Positions 15,774 to 21,849 of a stretch of 34,517 nucleotides of DNA are shown here, piece after piece; within the stretch, counting starts at the first letter, position 1; each line of letters begins with the position of its first letter. The DNA lies in NCBI GenBank assembly GCA_014728035.1, contig WJMJ01000032.1:1-34517 (forward strand), given 5' to 3'. The stretch is from Promethearchaeota archaeon. Lineage in GTDB: Archaea; Asgardarchaeota; Thorarchaeia; Thorarchaeales; Thorarchaeaceae. Under the pieces are notes generated by a model. The model saw only the letters and a program-made list of their open reading frames with translations. It had not been told where the DNA came from and made no database searches. A program made the translations under genes and the position numbers.

Positions 15774-17008
15774 TAGAACGCCTCCATTTGTCTACGCCTA
15801 TAGATGAAATACATCAATACAAAGACGATTTCTGCCACGACCACTCCTAGGGTTACTAAGAACGGTGCAGTTCCCGTACCAACAAGGATACTCTGCATTC
15901 CACGTATGATACCTATTATGAGAGCTAATATTCCCACAATGGAAATTAGTACTTTTATTCTGCGGTTACTTGGCATGAATACTTTGTATGCATACTCGAA
16001 AGCAAATTGTTGGTCTTTTTCAAATACCTCTCGAAGTACTTGGCTATTATCAACCCAAGGTCTTACGACAAGACGGACTACACGATGCGCATCATCAAAT
16101 GGGTAGAATTGCAAGTCTATCACATCAATACTTCCCGGATCCATCAATTCTGTATAGAACACATTGGGATCCACATGGTCTTGAGCTACCATCTCGATTC
16201 GGAATCTCATGGGTCTGTCCAGTAGATTCTTCAAACGTATTCTAACGGTAGACCATCTTCTTAGAACAAAACCCTTTCCTTGCTCAGTGAATTCAAGTAT
16301 CTCTACTGGAGGATTTGGTGTCATTGTAACTGGTGCTAGTACTCTGGAAGCTCTGAGATCAGCATTATAATTACGTACTCTTCTTCTCTCAACATACATC
16401 AGAATGAACTGAAGCGGAATCATTGACATTAGCAAAACTACGCCATTGCCAGTAATTATTATCCCTGCCAGAGACGCCCCTGTTGTAAATAGCTCGCCAG
16501 TTGTAAAACTTCCAGTCAGTAAATCATCAAATCCTACATATGTAAGAAAGAATCTTCCAAATCCAATCATTGTTCCTGTTATCACCGAAAGACCAAACAC
16601 CGAAGCAAAAGTGTTCTTTATACTAAGTATCAATCTATTAAATGTGAATATCTCATCTTTTTCCTGCATTGTGATTCTCTTTGATAAAAGACCCACAGTT
16701 GCTCCACCTATCATGTTTGCAAAGAATCCTAGAACATGACGGGCTGCAAGACCCTCATTGGATAGAACCACTTTTTCGAAAATATCAAGAAGCAAGTTCC
16801 CAAAACCAGCACCTAGGCCTCCAATAATGGGCCCAAATACGATTGATGCATAAGCGGGTACCATGATTATGATTCGTTCCTCATGTGGAAAGAGTTCAGC
16901 TGCACCTTCCAACAAAAAAGCATTCAAAGAATAGATGATTGCTACAAGGACAATGACTATCCAATCAAAGACCTTGGTCTTTTCTTCTTCAAAAGCGACT
17001 TGACTCAT
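15773..17008 (-). CDS. ECF S-component-like membrane domain fused to an Ig-like domain and 2 further TM helices
   Basis: The N-terminal region has the S-component signature SIVFGPIIGGLGAGFGNLLLD. It is followed by a soluble beta domain (VRIRLKNL..DHVDP..MDPGSIDVIDLQFYP) and two C-terminal TMs ending YRRR. Confidence 0.75.
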   Translation of the reverse strand: MSQVAFEEEKTKVFDWIVIVLVAIIYSLNAFLLEGAAELFPHEERIIIMVPAYASIVFGPIIGGLGAGFGNLLLDIFEKVVLSNEGLAARHVLGFFANMIGGATVGLLSKRITMQEKDEIFTFNRLILSIKNTFASVFGLSVITGTMIGFGRFFLTYVGFDDLLTGSFTTGELFTTGASLAGIIITGNGVVLLMSMIPLQFILMYVERRRVRNYNADLRASRVLAPVTMTPNPPVEILEFTEQGKGFVLRRWSTVRIRLKNLLDRPMRFRIEMVAQDHVDPNVFYTELMDPGSIDVIDLQFYPFDDAHRVVRLVVRPWVDNSQVLREVFEKDQQFAFEYAYKVFMPSNRRIKVLISIVGILALIIGIIRGMQSILVGTGTAPFLVTLGVVVAEIVFVLMYFIYRRRQMEAF

Positions 17009-17184
17009 TTTTCGTACATCCTATATTGCGTCACTTTTCCAACATCTTATTCCTATTTAGACAAAGTTGCGGTATCCTCCCATAATGCGAGAAACAAGTT
17101 TCAAAATGTAGGAATCAAGCCATGACCATATCACTTTTATTGTAATCCTTCTCTACATAATATGTCCTCATATTAAATATGGAC

Positions 17185-17484
17185 ATGGTAGCTGCCGGGA
17201 AAACAAATCTACGCCTTTGCGTGAGTGTATTTTCCGCAAAACTTTCCTCGGTAATACCAAACAAGGGCACAGTAAGTTGCATAGGTCGATACTCACTTTG
17301 GCGTGCGGTGAGGTCTAGCATCAGCTTCAAAATAAGCTTGATGGAATATGACGCACAAAAGATTATGGTGGTGGCGCGGCAGCGTTATATTATCTATGTA
17401 CTTGTGCCCACCTTCTAATTTTACAACCGTTGCAAACCACAGGTAATCCTGCCTTGAAGAAGAGCTAATTAAGGACATTTGCAA
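17185..17484 (+). ncRNA. Candidate structured non-coding RNA or long 5' leader of unknown family
   Basis: About 46% GC over 17191-17410 (hand count). At least eight mutually compatible helices including a long pseudoknot, with G.U pairs favouring the + strand. No credible protein ORF. Confidence 0.55.
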
Positions 17485-17494
17485 TTTTACAGGT

Positions 17495-18115
17495 ATGATA
17501 ATGCCACAGAATAATACGATTACTGTTCGAATGGTCTTAATGGTCAGCCTATTAACTGGCATTGTAGTTGGTGTGTCTATTCAACCTGCTGGTAATGTTA
17601 ATGCCATAATTGATATTCCTTCGACACCTTCACAAGATACCCAACCTCCAACCATATATTCATGGAATATTTCTGGTGAAGTGACTGAGGAATTTACAGT
17701 TTATTGTTTGGTTATAGATGAGGGTGATTCTGGAATTAAGAATGTTTCACTTCAAGTCAATCCAGATAATGGAACAATAAGATCTTATGAACTGGGGCAT
17801 AACGGTACGAAATCTGGTGATGCGTTCTACTATGATGGCTCTATCCCCGCACTAGAGTATGGTGATGTTTACGATTTGAGAATTATAGCATATGACAATG
17901 CTGAGAATTTACGTGAGAGTTACAAAAGGACTTTTGATTTGAGTGTCTTACCGACAACAATTGATTCGACTTACACTATGCCTGTTGTAGTAATTGGGAG
18001 TTCCATAGTACTTGGGGTTGTTGTAGTTGTAGCGTACCTGTATGACCAGAAACAAATTTCTGATGAAGATTTTCCCGAAGCAAAACTAGAATCTGAAGAA
18101 ACAAATTCAGAGTAA
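17495..18115 (+). CDS. Exported Ig/FN3-like single-domain protein with signal peptide and C-terminal TM anchor
   Basis: Hydrophobic N-terminal signal, DTQPPTI...DSGIKNVSL...YDLRIIAYDNAEN Ig-like pattern, C-terminal TM and acidic tail. Confidence 0.8.
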   Translation: MIMPQNNTITVRMVLMVSLLTGIVVGVSIQPAGNVNAIIDIPSTPSQDTQPPTIYSWNISGEVTEEFTVYCLVIDEGDSGIKNVSLQVNPDNGTIRSYELGHNGTKSGDAFYYDGSIPALEYGDVYDLRIIAYDNAENLRESYKRTFDLSVLPTTIDSTYTMPVVVIGSSIVLGVVVVVAYLYDQKQISDEDFPEAKLESEETNSE

Positions 18116-18180
18116 TACCTATATGATTCATCCGATGCACTTATATTGTTTTACTTTCATCAAACGTTCAGGTTTCGCCA

Positions 18181-20955
18181 ATGCTACGGTACGCCATTAA
18201 ACGAGTTTCAAGAAGTTATAGGTTATTCATTGCTCTCACTCTTGGTGTATTACTTGCAACGACTTTCTTCGCAAGTACAAATGTTGCTGCTGATATTTTA
18301 GCTAGGGACGCTCTTGATAGTACTCTTGATGGTGTGATTTATGATATTGTTGTCAACAAAGGTGCATCAAGTCAAACACATTGGAATGATAGCGTATTCG
18401 ATGACCTCGAATCTCAAATATCTGAGGTTGATCATGTAGTAGATAAGACACGAACATCATGGTTTGAGTATGCGTATAATTCAAGTACAGTGTTCGATAT
18501 TTTTGGTCTTAATTTCAATTCGGATTTTACATCAAATATGCATATAGTTTCAGGAGTAGATACGTTGGGTCCGAATGAGACCTACGTTGTGAGTGGGTCA
18601 CTAAACGAATCAATGTATGAATTGAATGACGAGATAACTGTTCCCATTCAGATATTGAATGGTTCTAACCCGGTTCCAATTACAATAAATTGGACACTTA
18701 CAGTTGCAGGATATGTAGAAATACCGAAAGACCAGATATTAGCATTAACTCAGGAAGCTGCCGCAGGAATCCTACTGAGTCCCTTCGGATTTGGCATTGA
18801 AACTGAGTATAATATGTTGTTAACAGATTGGGACCAAACTATATCCAATTTGATTCAAAATATAGAGAGTGAAGTTGTTAATCCTATAGTTGGTGCTATA
18901 CACAGTATTCATATCAAAATTGATCGCCAAACATTGATAGATCCCTATAACATAGAATCATCCACGGAAAGAATTCGCGATATTGCAACGCAGGTTCTAG
19001 CTAGAGTTGAACCTTATGGTGGTAGTATCAGAAGTAGTCTCCAGCTACCACTTACCTTGTATGGAGTGGTTTCACTACTGATGAATGTAGCGTTCATCTC
19101 CATGTCAATTCCAATATTCTTCATGGCTTGGTTCACGGGTACAATGGTAAGTGATGCCAGTTATAATCTTAGAAGACGTGAAATAGGACTATTGCTGACC
19201 AAGGGTTACAAGAGAGGTACTATCCGCAATATGTTTCTCATTGAGGGTGTGATTGTAGGTGGTCTTGCAGGATTTGTTTCAATGTTCTTGGGGACTGCAG
19301 TTGCATATCTTGCACTGGGGGTATCATCGATTGATTTCTTCACCGTTATAGTTCAAAATACGACTTCATTTGTGCTTTCAACTATAATGGGTATGATTCT
19401 AGCATTGTTCAGTGTGTGGAGACCTGCTAATCGAGCATCAAAGCTCGAAATTCTCGATTCGTTGAAACAATACATCTTGGTTGAAGAAACTTCTGAATAC
19501 AAAAGATTGCTACCAACAATTACTTTCTTGCTAGGAACGTACAAACTGATTGTGTGGATTCTTGGAGTGAATATGACAGGACTACTAAATAGTGTCAACC
19601 CTGGTAATTTTCTGCTCTCATTAGGAATCATTGTCTGGATCGCAATTGATCAAGTTTTGAATTTCCTAGGACCAATATTCTTCCTTTATGGGTCCACAAA
19701 GATATTCCTTAGAGGTTCCAATAAGTTCCAAGAATTTGTCGTTGATTCAGCGAAAAGATTCTTCGGTTCATTTGGTACTCTTGCAACAAGAAACGTGAAA
19801 CGAAATCCTGCTCGAAATGCAGCATTGGTCTTTGTCATTGGACTTATCGTTTCTTACGGTGTTTCATCTGTTGGTAGTCTCTACTCAGAAAATGATAGGG
19901 TTCTCCGTGAAGCATATTTTGACACTGGTTCAGATGTTAGACTCCAGTTAGCTTCTGGAACAAATATCTCAACTGTCCTAGAGCAAGTCGAGGATTATGA
20001 TTCTGTGATATCTGCTACACCAGAATATCATATCTCATTAAGCTCGGCTGGTGTGTCGATATCCACTAGAGGAATAATACCCTCTGAATGGATCGATACG
20101 GCTTTCTGGGAGCATGACTGGTATCAAGGTAATGCTATCGAGATGATTACCAATCTCAATAACAATGGTATTATTCTATCAGTGTCAATTGCTAAAACCT
20201 TGCAGGTTGATGTTGGTGACTCCATATTTGTACGCGGACCGCTTCAACCAGACCTTCATGAGTTAGAAGTCGTAGGTTTGATTGGTTTCGAGTCTTTGTT
20301 ATCTCAATTCATAGATGATGCTGATGTTTCATTCGAAGGTAACTATCCTTCATACGTTTCAGAAGCATTTCTTAACGAGACCAATATGTTGCAATTAACG
20401 ACGAAGAATGTTTTGATAGACACCCCTGATACGAACAATGGGACTCTACTTGAGGAAACTCTGTTTGAGGAGATTTCTGGAATTGAACGAACATATTCAG
20501 TTTCCTCAACTATGGAGAATTATTTTGAGCGTCCAATAGAAAGTGGTATGACCAAAATTCAGTGGGTAGCTATCGCATTTGCAGTTGTTATTGCAATGGT
20601 AGGTACTGGGCTAATTGTAATTCTAACTCTTAGAGAAAAGGATGCAGAGATTGCATTGCTTACAGTCAGAGGATTCAGTAAGAGTCAGCTTTTCAAGACT
20701 CTGTTAGCTGAGATCCTAATCATGGTTGTGTTCTCATTGTTATTGGGCTCTGTTGTTGGATTAATTCAGACCTTTGGCCAGATAAGTAATGTGAATCAAA
20801 ACATGTCCGGACTGATTAGACAGAGAATTATCATTCTAGGAATGCCTGGTTTCATGATGCTGGGCATCATCGGAGTTGTATTATTTGCAGCTGCGTTGCC
20901 AGTCTACTTTGCATCAAGAAGACCTGAATCGAAGGTGGATATCCTAAGAGCGTAG
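18181..20955 (+). CDS. FtsX/MacB-family ABC transporter permease (duplicated, two extracellular domains)
   Basis: Two FtsX signatures (RRREIGLLLTKG..LIEG; REKDAEIALLTVRG..LLAE), a RNVKRNPAR repeat junction and two large extracytoplasmic loops. Confidence 0.93.
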   Translation: MLRYAIKRVSRSYRLFIALTLGVLLATTFFASTNVAADILARDALDSTLDGVIYDIVVNKGASSQTHWNDSVFDDLESQISEVDHVVDKTRTSWFEYAYNSSTVFDIFGLNFNSDFTSNMHIVSGVDTLGPNETYVVSGSLNESMYELNDEITVPIQILNGSNPVPITINWTLTVAGYVEIPKDQILALTQEAAAGILLSPFGFGIETEYNMLLTDWDQTISNLIQNIESEVVNPIVGAIHSIHIKIDRQTLIDPYNIESSTERIRDIATQVLARVEPYGGSIRSSLQLPLTLYGVVSLLMNVAFISMSIPIFFMAWFTGTMVSDASYNLRRREIGLLLTKGYKRGTIRNMFLIEGVIVGGLAGFVSMFLGTAVAYLALGVSSIDFFTVIVQNTTSFVLSTIMGMILALFSVWRPANRASKLEILDSLKQYILVEETSEYKRLLPTITFLLGTYKLIVWILGVNMTGLLNSVNPGNFLLSLGIIVWIAIDQVLNFLGPIFFLYGSTKIFLRGSNKFQEFVVDSAKRFFGSFGTLATRNVKRNPARNAALVFVIGLIVSYGVSSVGSLYSENDRVLREAYFDTGSDVRLQLASGTNISTVLEQVEDYDSVISATPEYHISLSSAGVSISTRGIIPSEWIDTAFWEHDWYQGNAIEMITNLNNNGIILSVSIAKTLQVDVGDSIFVRGPLQPDLHELEVVGLIGFESLLSQFIDDADVSFEGNYPSYVSEAFLNETNMLQLTTKNVLIDTPDTNNGTLLEETLFEEISGIERTYSVSSTMENYFERPIESGMTKIQWVAIAFAVVIAMVGTGLIVILTLREKDAEIALLTVRGFSKSQLFKTLLAEILIMVVFSLLLGSVVGLIQTFGQISNVNQNMSGLIRQRIIILGMPGFMMLGIIGVVLFAAALPVYFASRRPESKVDILRA

Positions 20956-20964
20956 GTGATTATA

Positions 20965-21849
20965 ATGAGTGCGTATATACAAGCAAAAGATGTTGTGAAG
21001 GTCTTTAGAATGGGCTCTACAGAGGTACAAGCCCTACGAGGCCTTAATTGTGAAGTTGAAAAAGGTGAAATGGTTGCCATTGTTGGAGCTAGTGGTTCAG
21101 GGAAAACAACTCTATTGAATATCCTTGGAGGCATTACCCGTGCTACTGCTGGTCTTACAATTGTTGCTGGTCGTGATGTCACCAATGCTACTCCAAAGGA
21201 TTTAGGATTGCTTAGACGTGATGTTGTTGGACATATATTCCAAGAGCTGAATTTGATTCCAACATTAACCGCTTTTGAAAATGTGGAATTACCGTTAATG
21301 GCCGCAAAAGTTTCTCGTGGAGAACGGAAGAAAAGAGCTGAGAAGCTTCTTACAATAATGGGTCTCGATGATCGAATGAAACACAAACCTGATGAGCTTA
21401 GTGGAGGACAAAGACAACGTGTTGCAATTGCAGCAGCTCTTGCAAATGACCCAGAAGTTTTACTTGCTGATGAGCCTACGGGTGATTTGGATAGTGAAAC
21501 AGGCTCTATCATAGTTGAATATCTTCACAAAGTAAACAAGGAATTCGGAAAGACAGTTGTTATGGTAACACATGACTCATCTATTGCTAGGCAATGTGAT
21601 AGAATCCTTAGAATTCAAGATGGAAAGATAATTTCAGTATCTGTGCCCAGTCAGAATGATGAAAGTTCAGCACTTTCACGAGTTGATATAGCTCGTGAAC
21701 AATTAGCTGAAGTGAAATTGGAAATTGGAAAACTTGACCGGATGATACAGACTGGAAATATCGAACCTGCAGAATTTGCTGAACGACGAATGGATTTAGC
21801 AAAGAAGAAGAAAGTATTCGAAGAAGAATTACATCGATTGGGTTTGTGA
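20965..21849 (+). CDS. LolD/MacB-type ABC transporter ATP-binding protein with C-terminal coiled-coil extension
   Basis: Walker A GASGSGKTT, Q-loop, LSGGQRQRVAIA, ADEPTG.LD and VTHD. ATG at 20965 follows a GGTGA RBS (the ORF track starts at GTG 20956). Confidence 0.95.
   Translation: MSAYIQAKDVVKVFRMGSTEVQALRGLNCEVEKGEMVAIVGASGSGKTTLLNILGGITRATAGLTIVAGRDVTNATPKDLGLLRRDVVGHIFQELNLIPTLTAFENVELPLMAAKVSRGERKKRAEKLLTIMGLDDRMKHKPDELSGGQRQRVAIAAALANDPEVLLADEPTGDLDSETGSIIVEYLHKVNKEFGKTVVMVTHDSSIARQCDRILRIQDGKIISVSVPSQNDESSALSRVDIAREQLAEVKLEIGKLDRMIQTGNIEPAEFAERRMDLAKKKKVFEEELHRLGL

What the first reader, a model, noticed from the sequence alone, without database searches (positions are those of the whole stretch)
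17185..17410. Unannotated ~225-nt pseudoknotted RNA core in the intergenic gap between the ECF-Ig operon and the ABC operon
Seen: this gap is about 46% GC (hand count 101/220), while other spacers here are very AT-rich, and its ORFs look like noise. Hand folding gives compatible helices. (1) P1: GCTGCCG 17191-97 / CGGCAGC 17377-83, extendable by ATGGT 17185-89 / GTTAT 17384-88. (2) AATCT 17206-10 / AGATT 17360-64. (3) ACGCC 17211-15 / GGCGT 17300-04, continuing to GTGAGTGT 17221-28 / ATACTCAC 17289-96. (4) GCG 17305-07 / CGC 17352-54, closing a GA/ATGA-containing internal loop and the hairpin CATCAGCTT 17319-27 / AAGCTTGATG 17334-43. (5) A long pseudoknot: the enclosed loop pairs with the 3' tail (GGGCACA 17265-71 / TGTGCCC 17403-09 and TGCATAGG 17278-85 / TCTATGTA 17393-400). 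The non-canonical pairs in these helices are G.U on the + strand, which suggests that orientation. The long loop/tail helix could instead be an alternative switch conformation. Inference: a novel archaeal ncRNA, ribozyme or riboswitch-like element. It does not fit RNase P, SRP, C/D, H/ACA or the common riboswitch consensus sequences as I know them.
Basis: partly seen in the sequence, partly recalled or inferred. Interest (0 to 1): 0.8.

Follow-up and report, generated by a model that had tools for sequence, protein, structure and literature searches.

The report
New structured RNA gene in Thorarchaeota
The gap holds a real gene for a folded non-coding RNA of about 255 bases that matches no known RNA family, occurs once per genome only in Thorarchaeota (Asgard archaea), almost always sits just upstream of one ABC-transporter operon, and has an unknown job.

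Summary
The feature is real. Window ~17163-17425 (+) encodes a ~255-nt structured RNA with its own AT-rich promoter box and a T-rich 3' tract.

- **Conservation:** a covariance model of the 3' domain finds exactly one copy in 68 of 86 genomes of one family (public titles: Thorarchaeota). It finds none in 118 other genomes of the phylum.
- **Structure:** on 53 distinct sequences, 42 pairs are 95% paired (33-43% when slid) and 30 show double compensatory changes.
- **Exclusions:** Rfam 15 gives nothing. SRP RNA and RNase P RNA lie elsewhere in the genome. No reading frame is conserved.
about half right. The "pseudoknot" helices are the nested closing helices of a four-way junction. Two proposed helices clash with covarying ones. 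The proposed P1 is untestable here, but comparable 5'-to-loop complementarity recurs in many lineages.
- **Linkage:** the RNA lies upstream of, and co-oriented with, a small membrane protein/FtsX permease/ABC ATPase operon in 44 genomes. That operon appears to have its own promoter, and unrelated genes are sometimes inserted between.

Best reading: a stand-alone, possibly two-state RNA tied to that operon. Its function is unknown. Other readers of this scan noted the same family in other genomes.

The parts
17135..17142 (+). AT-rich TATA-like promoter box of the RNA gene; predicted start about 17161-17166
   Evidence: A box of this type aligns at the same distance upstream in nearly all relatives. 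The same style precedes this genome's SRP and RNase P RNA genes. The start site is inferred, not mapped.
17163..17261 (+). 5' domain (~100 nt), fast-evolving; folds as an irregular long hairpin here (17186-17259 in the MFE)
   Evidence: MFE. Genus-level consensus folds show own helices in this domain but no family-wide alignment. blastn finds no similarity to relatives in this part.
17191..17197 (+).
   Evidence: 7 bp of complementarity in the sequence. Most lineages carry some C-rich box in the first ~50 nt complementary to the same loop, but in shifting register. Suggestive only.
17265..17272 (+). Closing helix Ha, 5' strand (pairs with 17402-17409)
   Evidence: 8 pairs, 97.9% paired in 53 sequences, 4 pairs with double changes.
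17282..17286 (+). Helix Hb, 5' strand (pairs with 17392-17396); closes the four-way junction
   Evidence: 5 pairs, 4 with double changes.
17288..17315 (+). Hairpin Hc with invariant loop 17298-17306
   Evidence: 9 pairs, 7 with double changes. Loop columns are invariant in 53 sequences.
17319..17343 (+). Hairpin Hd with A-rich 7-nt loop 17328-17334
Evidence: 7 pairs, 6 with double changes.
17345..17391 (+). Hairpin He: stem 17345-54/17382-91 around a 27-nt loop whose G-rich part 17367-17381 is invariant
   Evidence: 10 pairs, 9 with double changes. Invariant columns.
17392..17412 (+). 3' strands of Hb and Ha followed by the invariant ACC tail (17410-12)
   Evidence: The last seven bases equal the commonest tRNA 3' end of this genome minus its final A. 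This arm can alternatively pair with the He loop.
17413..17427 (+). T/pyrimidine-rich tract, likely archaeal terminator
   Evidence: Present after the 3' helix in all relatives. Inferred, not mapped.
17466..17474 (+). AT-rich box 29 nt before ATG 17495: likely own promoter of the downstream operon (not part of the RNA)
   Evidence: The same box recurs 18-33 nt before the homologous gene's start in several genera.
17495..21849 (+). Linked operon: 206-aa membrane protein (no Pfam hit), 924-aa FtsX/MacB-type permease, ABC ATPase
   Evidence: Pfam. Linkage.

Best explanation
This is an independently transcribed, stable, highly structured non-coding RNA of about 255 nt, specific to the Thorarchaeota family. 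It has two domains.

The conserved 3' domain (~155 nt) is a four-way junction closed by two stacked helices. It displays three invariant loops, two of them G-rich. It ends in a GC-clamped helix plus an ACC tail that copies the acceptor end of this organism's commonest tRNAs.

The 5' domain (~100 nt) evolves fast, but it usually carries a C-rich box that can pair with the large invariant loop.

I think it most likely acts as an RNA in its own right: a protein-binding or RNA-binding scaffold whose invariant loops are the working surface. It may toggle between two pairings of its 3' arm. It is functionally tied to the FtsX/MacB-type ABC transporter operon that it precedes.

Shown: the gene exists, its strand, the 3'-domain fold, its distribution, and the linkage. 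Inferred: the transcript ends, the pseudoknot, the two-state behaviour, and any role.
For: - Single blastn match per genome across genera.
- The covariance model finds exactly one hit in 68/86 family genomes and in 21/23 high-quality ones. It finds 0/118 elsewhere in the phylum.
- Covariation: 95.2% paired against 33-43% when slid, 30/42 pairs with double changes, 0/500 shuffles reaching the observed value. An invariant U-G pair and many G-U pairs fix the + strand.
- No conserved frame: at most 19/53 sequences are open in any frame, and lengths are not 3-periodic.
- A promoter-like box and a T-rich tract occur in all relatives, as for this genome's SRP and RNase P RNA genes.
- The downstream gene has its own AT-rich box 29 nt before its ATG.
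- The RNA is retained where unrelated or opposite-strand genes follow it and where the operon is 6-13 kb away or on another contig.
- Linkage: the 206-aa gene is downstream on the same strand in 44 genomes. The permease is likewise placed in the genus that lacks that gene. High-quality genomes without the RNA also lack both proteins.
- The alternative pairing of the 3' arm with the invariant loop is nearly as stable as the closing helix in all 75 sequences (mean -17.8 against -20.6 kcal/mol).
Against:
- No partner protein or target was identified. The complements of the invariant loops occur nowhere else in the genome with 0-1 mismatches beyond chance.
- The near-constant position and orientation upstream of one operon is what a cis-acting leader would show.
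- The 5'-to-loop pairing is only modestly better than shuffles overall (mean z -0.74), and its register is not conserved.
- Two high-quality genomes appear to live without the RNA.
Confidence: 0.5

Rival explanations
1. It is a cis-acting, riboswitch-like or attenuator leader. The conserved 3' domain is a sensor. The choice between the closing helix and the alternative hairpin (invariant loop with 3' arm, just before the T tract) sets how much transcription reads through into the ABC transporter operon.
For: - The RNA is upstream and co-oriented with the operon in 44 of the 45 genomes where both lie on one contig. The gap is often only 80-250 nt.
- Upstream neighbours are not conserved.
- The RNA and the operon are missing together in G001 and G010.
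- A universal, nearly iso-energetic alternative pairing involves the invariant ACC tail and ends at the T tract.
- A C-rich 5' box could compete for the same loop.
Against: - The downstream gene seems to have its own promoter box at leaderless distance.
- In several genera 1-7 kb of unrelated genes lie between (tRNA synthetase, ferredoxin-domain protein, response regulator, opposite-strand ORFs), yet the RNA is fully conserved.
- In one genome the operon is 12.6 kb away on the other strand.
- Archaeal termination needs no hairpin.
- No ligand is suggested by the gene content.
Confidence: 0.27
2. It is a tRNA-end mimic. The closing helix plus ACC is recognised by tRNA-end enzymes: RNase P cutting before 17265 and CCA-adding enzyme completing the tail. 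Alternatively, the invariant loop pairs with the CCACCA 3' ends of tRNAs, as a T-box or the RNase P L15 loop does.
For: - The invariant last seven bases equal the 3' end of about 12 of 47 tRNA genes here, minus the final A. The 5' strand starts like those tRNAs.
- Part of the invariant loop is the exact complement of the last six bases of such tRNAs (sequence).
- The junction is a tight four-way one.
Against: - ARAGORN finds no tRNA-like gene.
- There is no T-loop or anticodon-loop signature.
- The helix is 8 bp and is separated from the junction by long internal loops.
- tRNA genes here encode the full CCA, but this RNA has T after ACC.
- All the residues involved are invariant, so covariation cannot test the idea.
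Confidence: 0.1
3. It is a diverged copy of a known housekeeping RNA (SRP, RNase P/MRP-like), or the guide RNA of a mobile nuclease (TnpB/IscB type).
For: Size, GC excess and a long-range closing helix resemble such RNAs.
Against: - No Rfam hit even at E<=10 in 16 members.
- SRP RNA (89.5 bits) and RNase P RNA (159.7 bits) are elsewhere in the genome.
- It is single-copy and syntenic, with no nuclease or transposase gene beside it.
Confidence: 0.03
4. It is a small protein gene (the 79-aa ORF 17179-17418), or a protein-binding DNA region rather than an RNA.
For: An ATG-started ORF spans the region in this genome.
Against: - No frame stays open in more than 19 of 53 relatives.
- Indels are not in threes.
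- Substitutions are compensatory across helices, with G-U pairs on one strand only.
Confidence: 0.01

Closest known systems
Orphan structured ncRNAs found by comparative genomics (Weinberg/Breaker-type candidates such as raiA, OLE; PMC5737381, PMC8632094)
   Same: Own promoter and terminator, strong covariation, invariant loops, lineage-restricted, recurring gene neighbourhood, function unknown at discovery.
   Different: Those are bacterial. This one is confined to one Asgard family and matches none of their models in Rfam 15.
Archaeal SRP (7S) RNA, Rfam RF01857, and archaeal RNase P RNA, RF00373
   Same: Single-copy stable RNA of 250-330 nt with a similar promoter and T-rich end in this genome. 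GC above background. Long-range closing helix.
   Different: No model match. Both genuine genes are on other contigs. No helix-8 or P4/CR-I/CR-V signatures seen.
Transcription-terminating riboswitches of bacteria (aptamer plus competing terminator hairpin)
   Same: Conserved multi-helix junction directly upstream of a transporter operon. Mutually exclusive pairings of the 3' arm ending at a T tract.
   Different: Archaeal. An apparent separate promoter for the operon. Adjacency is broken in several genera without loss of the RNA. No ligand known.
tRNA-like acceptor mimics (tmRNA tRNA-like domain, bacterial YrlA, viral TLS, mascRNA)
   Same: Terminal GC helix followed by the discriminator-like A and CC, identical to the host's commonest tRNA end.
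   Different: No T arm or D arm signatures. The 5' strand of the helix is internal, about 100 nt from the start. Not detected by ARAGORN.

Membership tests
Archaeal SRP RNA (RF01857) | Scores with the family covariance model | tested here: not met
   No hit in the window at gathering score or at E<=10. The genome's SRP RNA is on contig C25.
Archaeal RNase P RNA (RF00373) | Scores with the family model; P4 pseudoknot from CR-I/CR-V | tested here: not met
   No hit. The genuine gene is on C151 at 159.7 bits. CR-I/CR-V-like strings are not seen in the alignment.
Any Rfam 15 family (4227 models, incl. C/D, H/ACA, riboswitches, ribozymes, TnpB/IscB guide RNAs) | Model match at the locus in this or related genomes | tested here: not met
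   Only chance-level hits here (E 3.4 and 8.9) and none at the RNA in 15 relatives.
Riboswitch / cis-regulatory leader | Lies in the 5' UTR of, and is co-transcribed with, the regulated gene in all members | tested here: inconclusive
   Co-oriented upstream in 44 genomes. But there is a promoter-like box between, and there are intervening unrelated or opposite-strand genes in several genera.
Riboswitch / cis-regulatory leader | Alternative, mutually exclusive pairing forming an expression platform | tested here: inconclusive
   An alternative helix between the invariant loop and the 3' arm exists in all 75 sequences. The residues are invariant, so covariation cannot confirm it.
Riboswitch / cis-regulatory leader | Binds a small ligand | not testable with these tools
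   Needs in-line probing or ITC.
tRNA / tRNA-like structure | Cloverleaf with T loop, detectable by tRNA finders | tested here: not met
   ARAGORN finds nothing in the window. Only the acceptor-like end resembles tRNA.
Trans-acting antisense sRNA | Own transcription unit | tested here: inconclusive
   The promoter box and T tract are conserved, but no transcript data are available.
Trans-acting antisense sRNA | Conserved complementarity to a target mRNA | tested here: not met
   No site with 0-1 mismatches to the invariant loops elsewhere in the genome beyond chance. The best site in the operon (18188-97) is not conserved in relatives (compared).
Mobile-element guide RNA (TnpB/IscB omega RNA) | Multi-copy, adjacent nuclease or transposase gene | tested here: not met
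   One copy per genome. Neighbours are transporter genes.

The most novel reading that the evidence does not exclude
This is an archaeal allosteric RNA: a two-state sensor. Its invariant G-rich loop pairs either with a C-rich 5' box (pseudoknot, closing helix formed) or with its own tRNA-like 3' arm. Alternatively, the loop captures the CCACCA ends of uncharged tRNAs in a T-box-like way. Through this switch the RNA would control the adjacent FtsX/MacB-type ABC exporter. That would be the first lineage-specific riboswitch or T-box-like system described in Asgard archaea.
Probability: 0.12. Interest if true: 0.9.

Novelty: categorically new. Interest (0 to 1): 0.62.

Why it matters
Very few structured RNAs beyond the universal ones are known from Asgard archaea, the closest prokaryotic relatives of eukaryotes, and none has been characterised in Thorarchaeota.

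This one is as well supported by covariation as many accepted RNA families. It has absolutely invariant loops, which implies a specific partner. It is also tied to one transporter operon, which gives a concrete starting point for experiments.

"Categorically new" is meant at the level of the RNA family: no relation to any catalogued family was found. The kind of object, an orphan structured ncRNA, is familiar.

Tried and rejected
1. Known families: Rfam at gathering and at E<=10, here and in 15 relatives, gave nothing.
2. SRP or RNase P identity: rejected, because both genes are elsewhere.
3. tRNA: none found.
4. Coding: rejected.
5. Kissing between the A-rich loop of hairpin Hd and the 5' domain: in this window 17226-31 is complementary to 17329-34, and another reader proposed the same for a relative. 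There is no excess over shuffles (median p 0.87, 3% at p<=0.05). Rejected as a family feature.
6. Mean z is -0.76. Unresolved, leaning against.
7. Trans targets: no complement of the invariant loops in the genome. The best site in the permease mRNA is not conserved.
8. Wider distribution: none found in 118 other genomes of the phylum, nor upstream of permease homologues in two other Asgard families. A genome-collection pattern scan gave 50 true hits, all with Thorarchaeota, Promethearchaeota or uncultured-archaeon titles, plus 39 chance hits in GC-rich bacteria. A metagenome scan added 32 loci but no close relative of this genome's 5' domain.
10. Literature: four full-text searches found no description.

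Full report
**What is there.** The 486-nt gap between the minus-strand gene ending at 17008 and the plus-strand gene starting at 17495 contains a 226-nt stretch of 45.6% GC in a 39% GC window. The + strand folds to -72.7 kcal/mol (z -2.85 against dinucleotide shuffles). The - strand is unremarkable (z -1.27).

**It is conserved.**
- blastn of 17150-17450 against 40 relatives found a single match of 70-79% identity in about 21 of 24 genomes of the same family, from many genera. The match covers only the 3' two thirds.
- A MAFFT alignment of 21 and then 53 distinct sequences shows blocks of absolute invariance separated by variable stems.
- A covariance model of this 3' domain finds exactly one hit in 68 of 86 genomes of the family, and in 21 of 23 high-quality ones.
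- The class consists of this family plus one further genome.
- None of 118 other genomes sampled from the phylum has a hit at E<=1.
- An exact-pattern scan of 185,579 species genomes returned 89 loci. The model confirms 50 of them. Of the titles that displays, the ones belonging to confirmed loci read Thorarchaeota, Promethearchaeota or 'uncultured archaeon'. The other 39 loci are chance matches, in GC-rich bacteria wherever a title was shown.

**It is an RNA, on the + strand.** RNAalifold on the 53 sequences gives 42 pairs. Counted on that alignment:
- 95.2% of cells are standard pairs, against 33-43% when the 3' partners are slid by 1-3 columns.
- 30 pairs show changes on both sides.
- The covariation score is 0.514, against 0.065-0.106 when slid.
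- 0 of 500 column shuffles reach any observed measure.
- One U-G pair is invariant and G-U pairs are frequent, which fixes the strand.

No reading frame is open across the domain in more than 19 of 53 sequences, and domain lengths (147-164 nt) show no period of three. The 79-aa ORF seen here is therefore noise.

**Anatomy (window coordinates).**
- Promoter: an AT-rich box at 17135-42 aligns with TATA-like boxes in the relatives. It puts the start near 17163.
- 5' domain: about 100 nt that evolve fast. Genus-level consensus folds show local helices but no family-wide alignment.
- 3' domain:
  - closing helix Ha, 17265-72 with 17402-09;
  - an internal loop;
  - helix Hb, 17282-86 with 17392-96;
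  - a tight four-way junction carrying three hairpins:
    - Hc, 17288-17315, with invariant 9-nt loop 17298-306;
    - Hd, 17319-43, with an A-rich 7-nt loop;
    - He, stem 17345-54 with 17382-91, with a 27-nt loop whose G-rich part 17367-81 never varies.
- 3' end: after Ha comes an invariant ACC (17410-12) and a T/pyrimidine-rich tract, as found after this genome's SRP and RNase P RNA genes.

- Its 'long pseudoknot' helices are Ha and Hb. They are real, but they are the nested closing helices.
- Its hairpin is Hd.
- Its helix 17221-28/17289-96 and its GCG/CGC pair conflict with the covarying Hc and He.
- It missed He.
- Its P1 and helices (2) and (3a) involve the 5' domain, which cannot be aligned to any relative of this genome.

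A note by another reader of this scan on a related genome proposed that the 5' end pairs with the invariant He loop, so I tested that across the family. The first 50 transcribed nt give a mean duplex energy of -19.2 kcal/mol with the loop. The untranscribed upstream 50 nt give -16.2, and the rest of the 5' domain gives -15.8. Mean z against shuffles is -0.74, and 21% of sequences fall below -1.64. In some lineages the match is 9-11 contiguous pairs (L003, L027, L183, L184 and the L016 group). The register differs between lineages, which the repetitive G-rich loop allows. A pseudoknot is therefore plausible but not shown.

The same note's second proposal, Hd loop with a 5' loop, has a counterpart here at 17226-31/17329-34. 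It shows no excess over shuffles.

**A built-in alternative.** In all 75 distinct sequences, the 3' arm plus the ACC tail can pair with the invariant He loop instead of with the Ha 5' strand. This pairing is almost as stable (mean -17.8 against -20.6 kcal/mol). It would explain why the unpaired ACC never changes. It places a local hairpin directly before the T tract. Because all the residues are invariant, covariation cannot test it.

**What it is not.**
- Rfam 15 gives nothing at gathering thresholds.
- At E<=10 there are only chance hits, E 3.4 and 8.9, each far below its family's gathering score.
- Nothing lies at the homologous position in 15 relatives.
- The genome's SRP RNA and RNase P RNA are on contigs C25 and C151.
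- ARAGORN finds no tRNA.
- It is single-copy, and no nuclease or transposase gene lies beside it.

**Context.** Downstream lie three genes:
- a 206-aa protein without Pfam match;
- a 924-aa FtsX/MacB-type permease;
- an ABC ATPase.

Upstream neighbours differ between genera. The position relative to the operon is much more constant:
- Combining the model hits with a family-wide search for the 206-aa protein, the protein gene lies downstream on the same strand on the same contig in 44 genomes, with gaps of 79 nt to 7.4 kb.
- It lies on the same contig but the other strand, 12.6 kb away, in one genome.
- It lies on a different contig in six.
- The genus that lacks this protein has the permease in the same position.
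- The two high-quality genomes without the RNA (G001, the only other member of this genus, and G010) also lack both proteins.
- Several other 'absences' are assembly effects: an N gap in G044 and contig ends in G061, G051 and G069, one of which retains a truncated hit.
- Permease homologues in two other Asgard families have no such RNA upstream.

**Cis or trans?**
- For a cis-acting leader: the constant position and orientation, the joint absence, and the alternative hairpin before the T tract.
- Against it:
  - An AT-rich box at 17466-74, 29 nt before the ATG, recurs 18-33 nt before the homologous start codon in several genera. It looks like the operon's own promoter for a leaderless mRNA.
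  - Where adjacency is broken, the following genes are unrelated: a class I tRNA synthetase, a ferredoxin-domain protein, a response regulator, a zinc-ribbon protein and opposite-strand ORFs. The RNA is nevertheless fully conserved.
- No trans target was found. The complements of the invariant loops do not occur elsewhere in the genome beyond chance, and the best site in the operon mRNA is not conserved.

**A resemblance worth recording.** The invariant end of the RNA (four G-C pairs, then A, C, C) is identical to the acceptor end of the commonest tRNAs of this genome, apart from the missing final A. Those tRNA genes encode their CCA. Part of the invariant He loop is the exact complement of the last six bases of those tRNAs. 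This may reflect end-processing or protection by tRNA enzymes, tRNA sensing, or coincidence. No other tRNA feature is present.

**Verdict.**
- The finding is a real, previously uncatalogued structured RNA gene restricted to Thorarchaeota.
- I rate 'stand-alone structured RNA functionally tied to the ABC operon, possibly two-state' at 0.5.
- I rate 'riboswitch-like leader' at 0.27 and 'tRNA-end mimic or sensor' at 0.1. Everything else is marginal.
- Literature searches found no description.
- Other readers and agents of this scan have flagged what is clearly the same family and possibly the same family in other Thorarchaeota genomes. That is not independent evidence.

Noticed in passing
window 17430-17484: The neighbouring first-reader note proposes a three-way-junction RNA module here. 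The stretch contains the AT-rich box 17466-74, which recurs at promoter distance before the homologous gene in other genera. A promoter for a leaderless mRNA seems more likely than an RNA module.
   Followed up: partly
L128 (a Thorarchaeota MAG contig), about 50-75 nt downstream of its RNA 3' end: A partial second copy of the invariant He-loop segment, followed by the same T-rich tract. It looks like a local partial duplication of the RNA's 3' part.
   Followed up: no
G044:C1 about 97.9 kb; G061:C1 end; G051:C70 end; G069:C30 end: Assemblies often break or carry an N gap exactly where this RNA is expected, upstream of the operon. 'Absence' in draft genomes is therefore unreliable, and the locus may be hard to assemble.
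   Followed up: partly
own genome contig C26, about 11.3-25.1 kb: About 20 tRNA genes on one strand within 14 kb, with atypical acceptor ends compared with the rest of the genome. This may be a tRNA array of foreign (viral or contaminant) origin; the bin has 8.5% contamination.
   Followed up: no
own genome C25:14235-14731: The SRP RNA gene lies about 100 nt upstream of, and on the same strand as, a tRNA-Ser gene. From my own recollection, not checked here, a 7S RNA/tRNA-Ser pairing has been described in some methanogens.
   Followed up: no
own genome C51:15308-15405 and C151:74129-74219: ARAGORN calls a tRNA-Pyl-like (CTA anticodon) gene and a tRNA-Sec gene. The first may be a false call and deserves a check.
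   Followed up: no
window 18188-18197: Codons 4-7 of the permease gene are complementary over 8 bp to the invariant Hc loop. The site is not conserved in relatives, so it is probably chance.
   Followed up: partly
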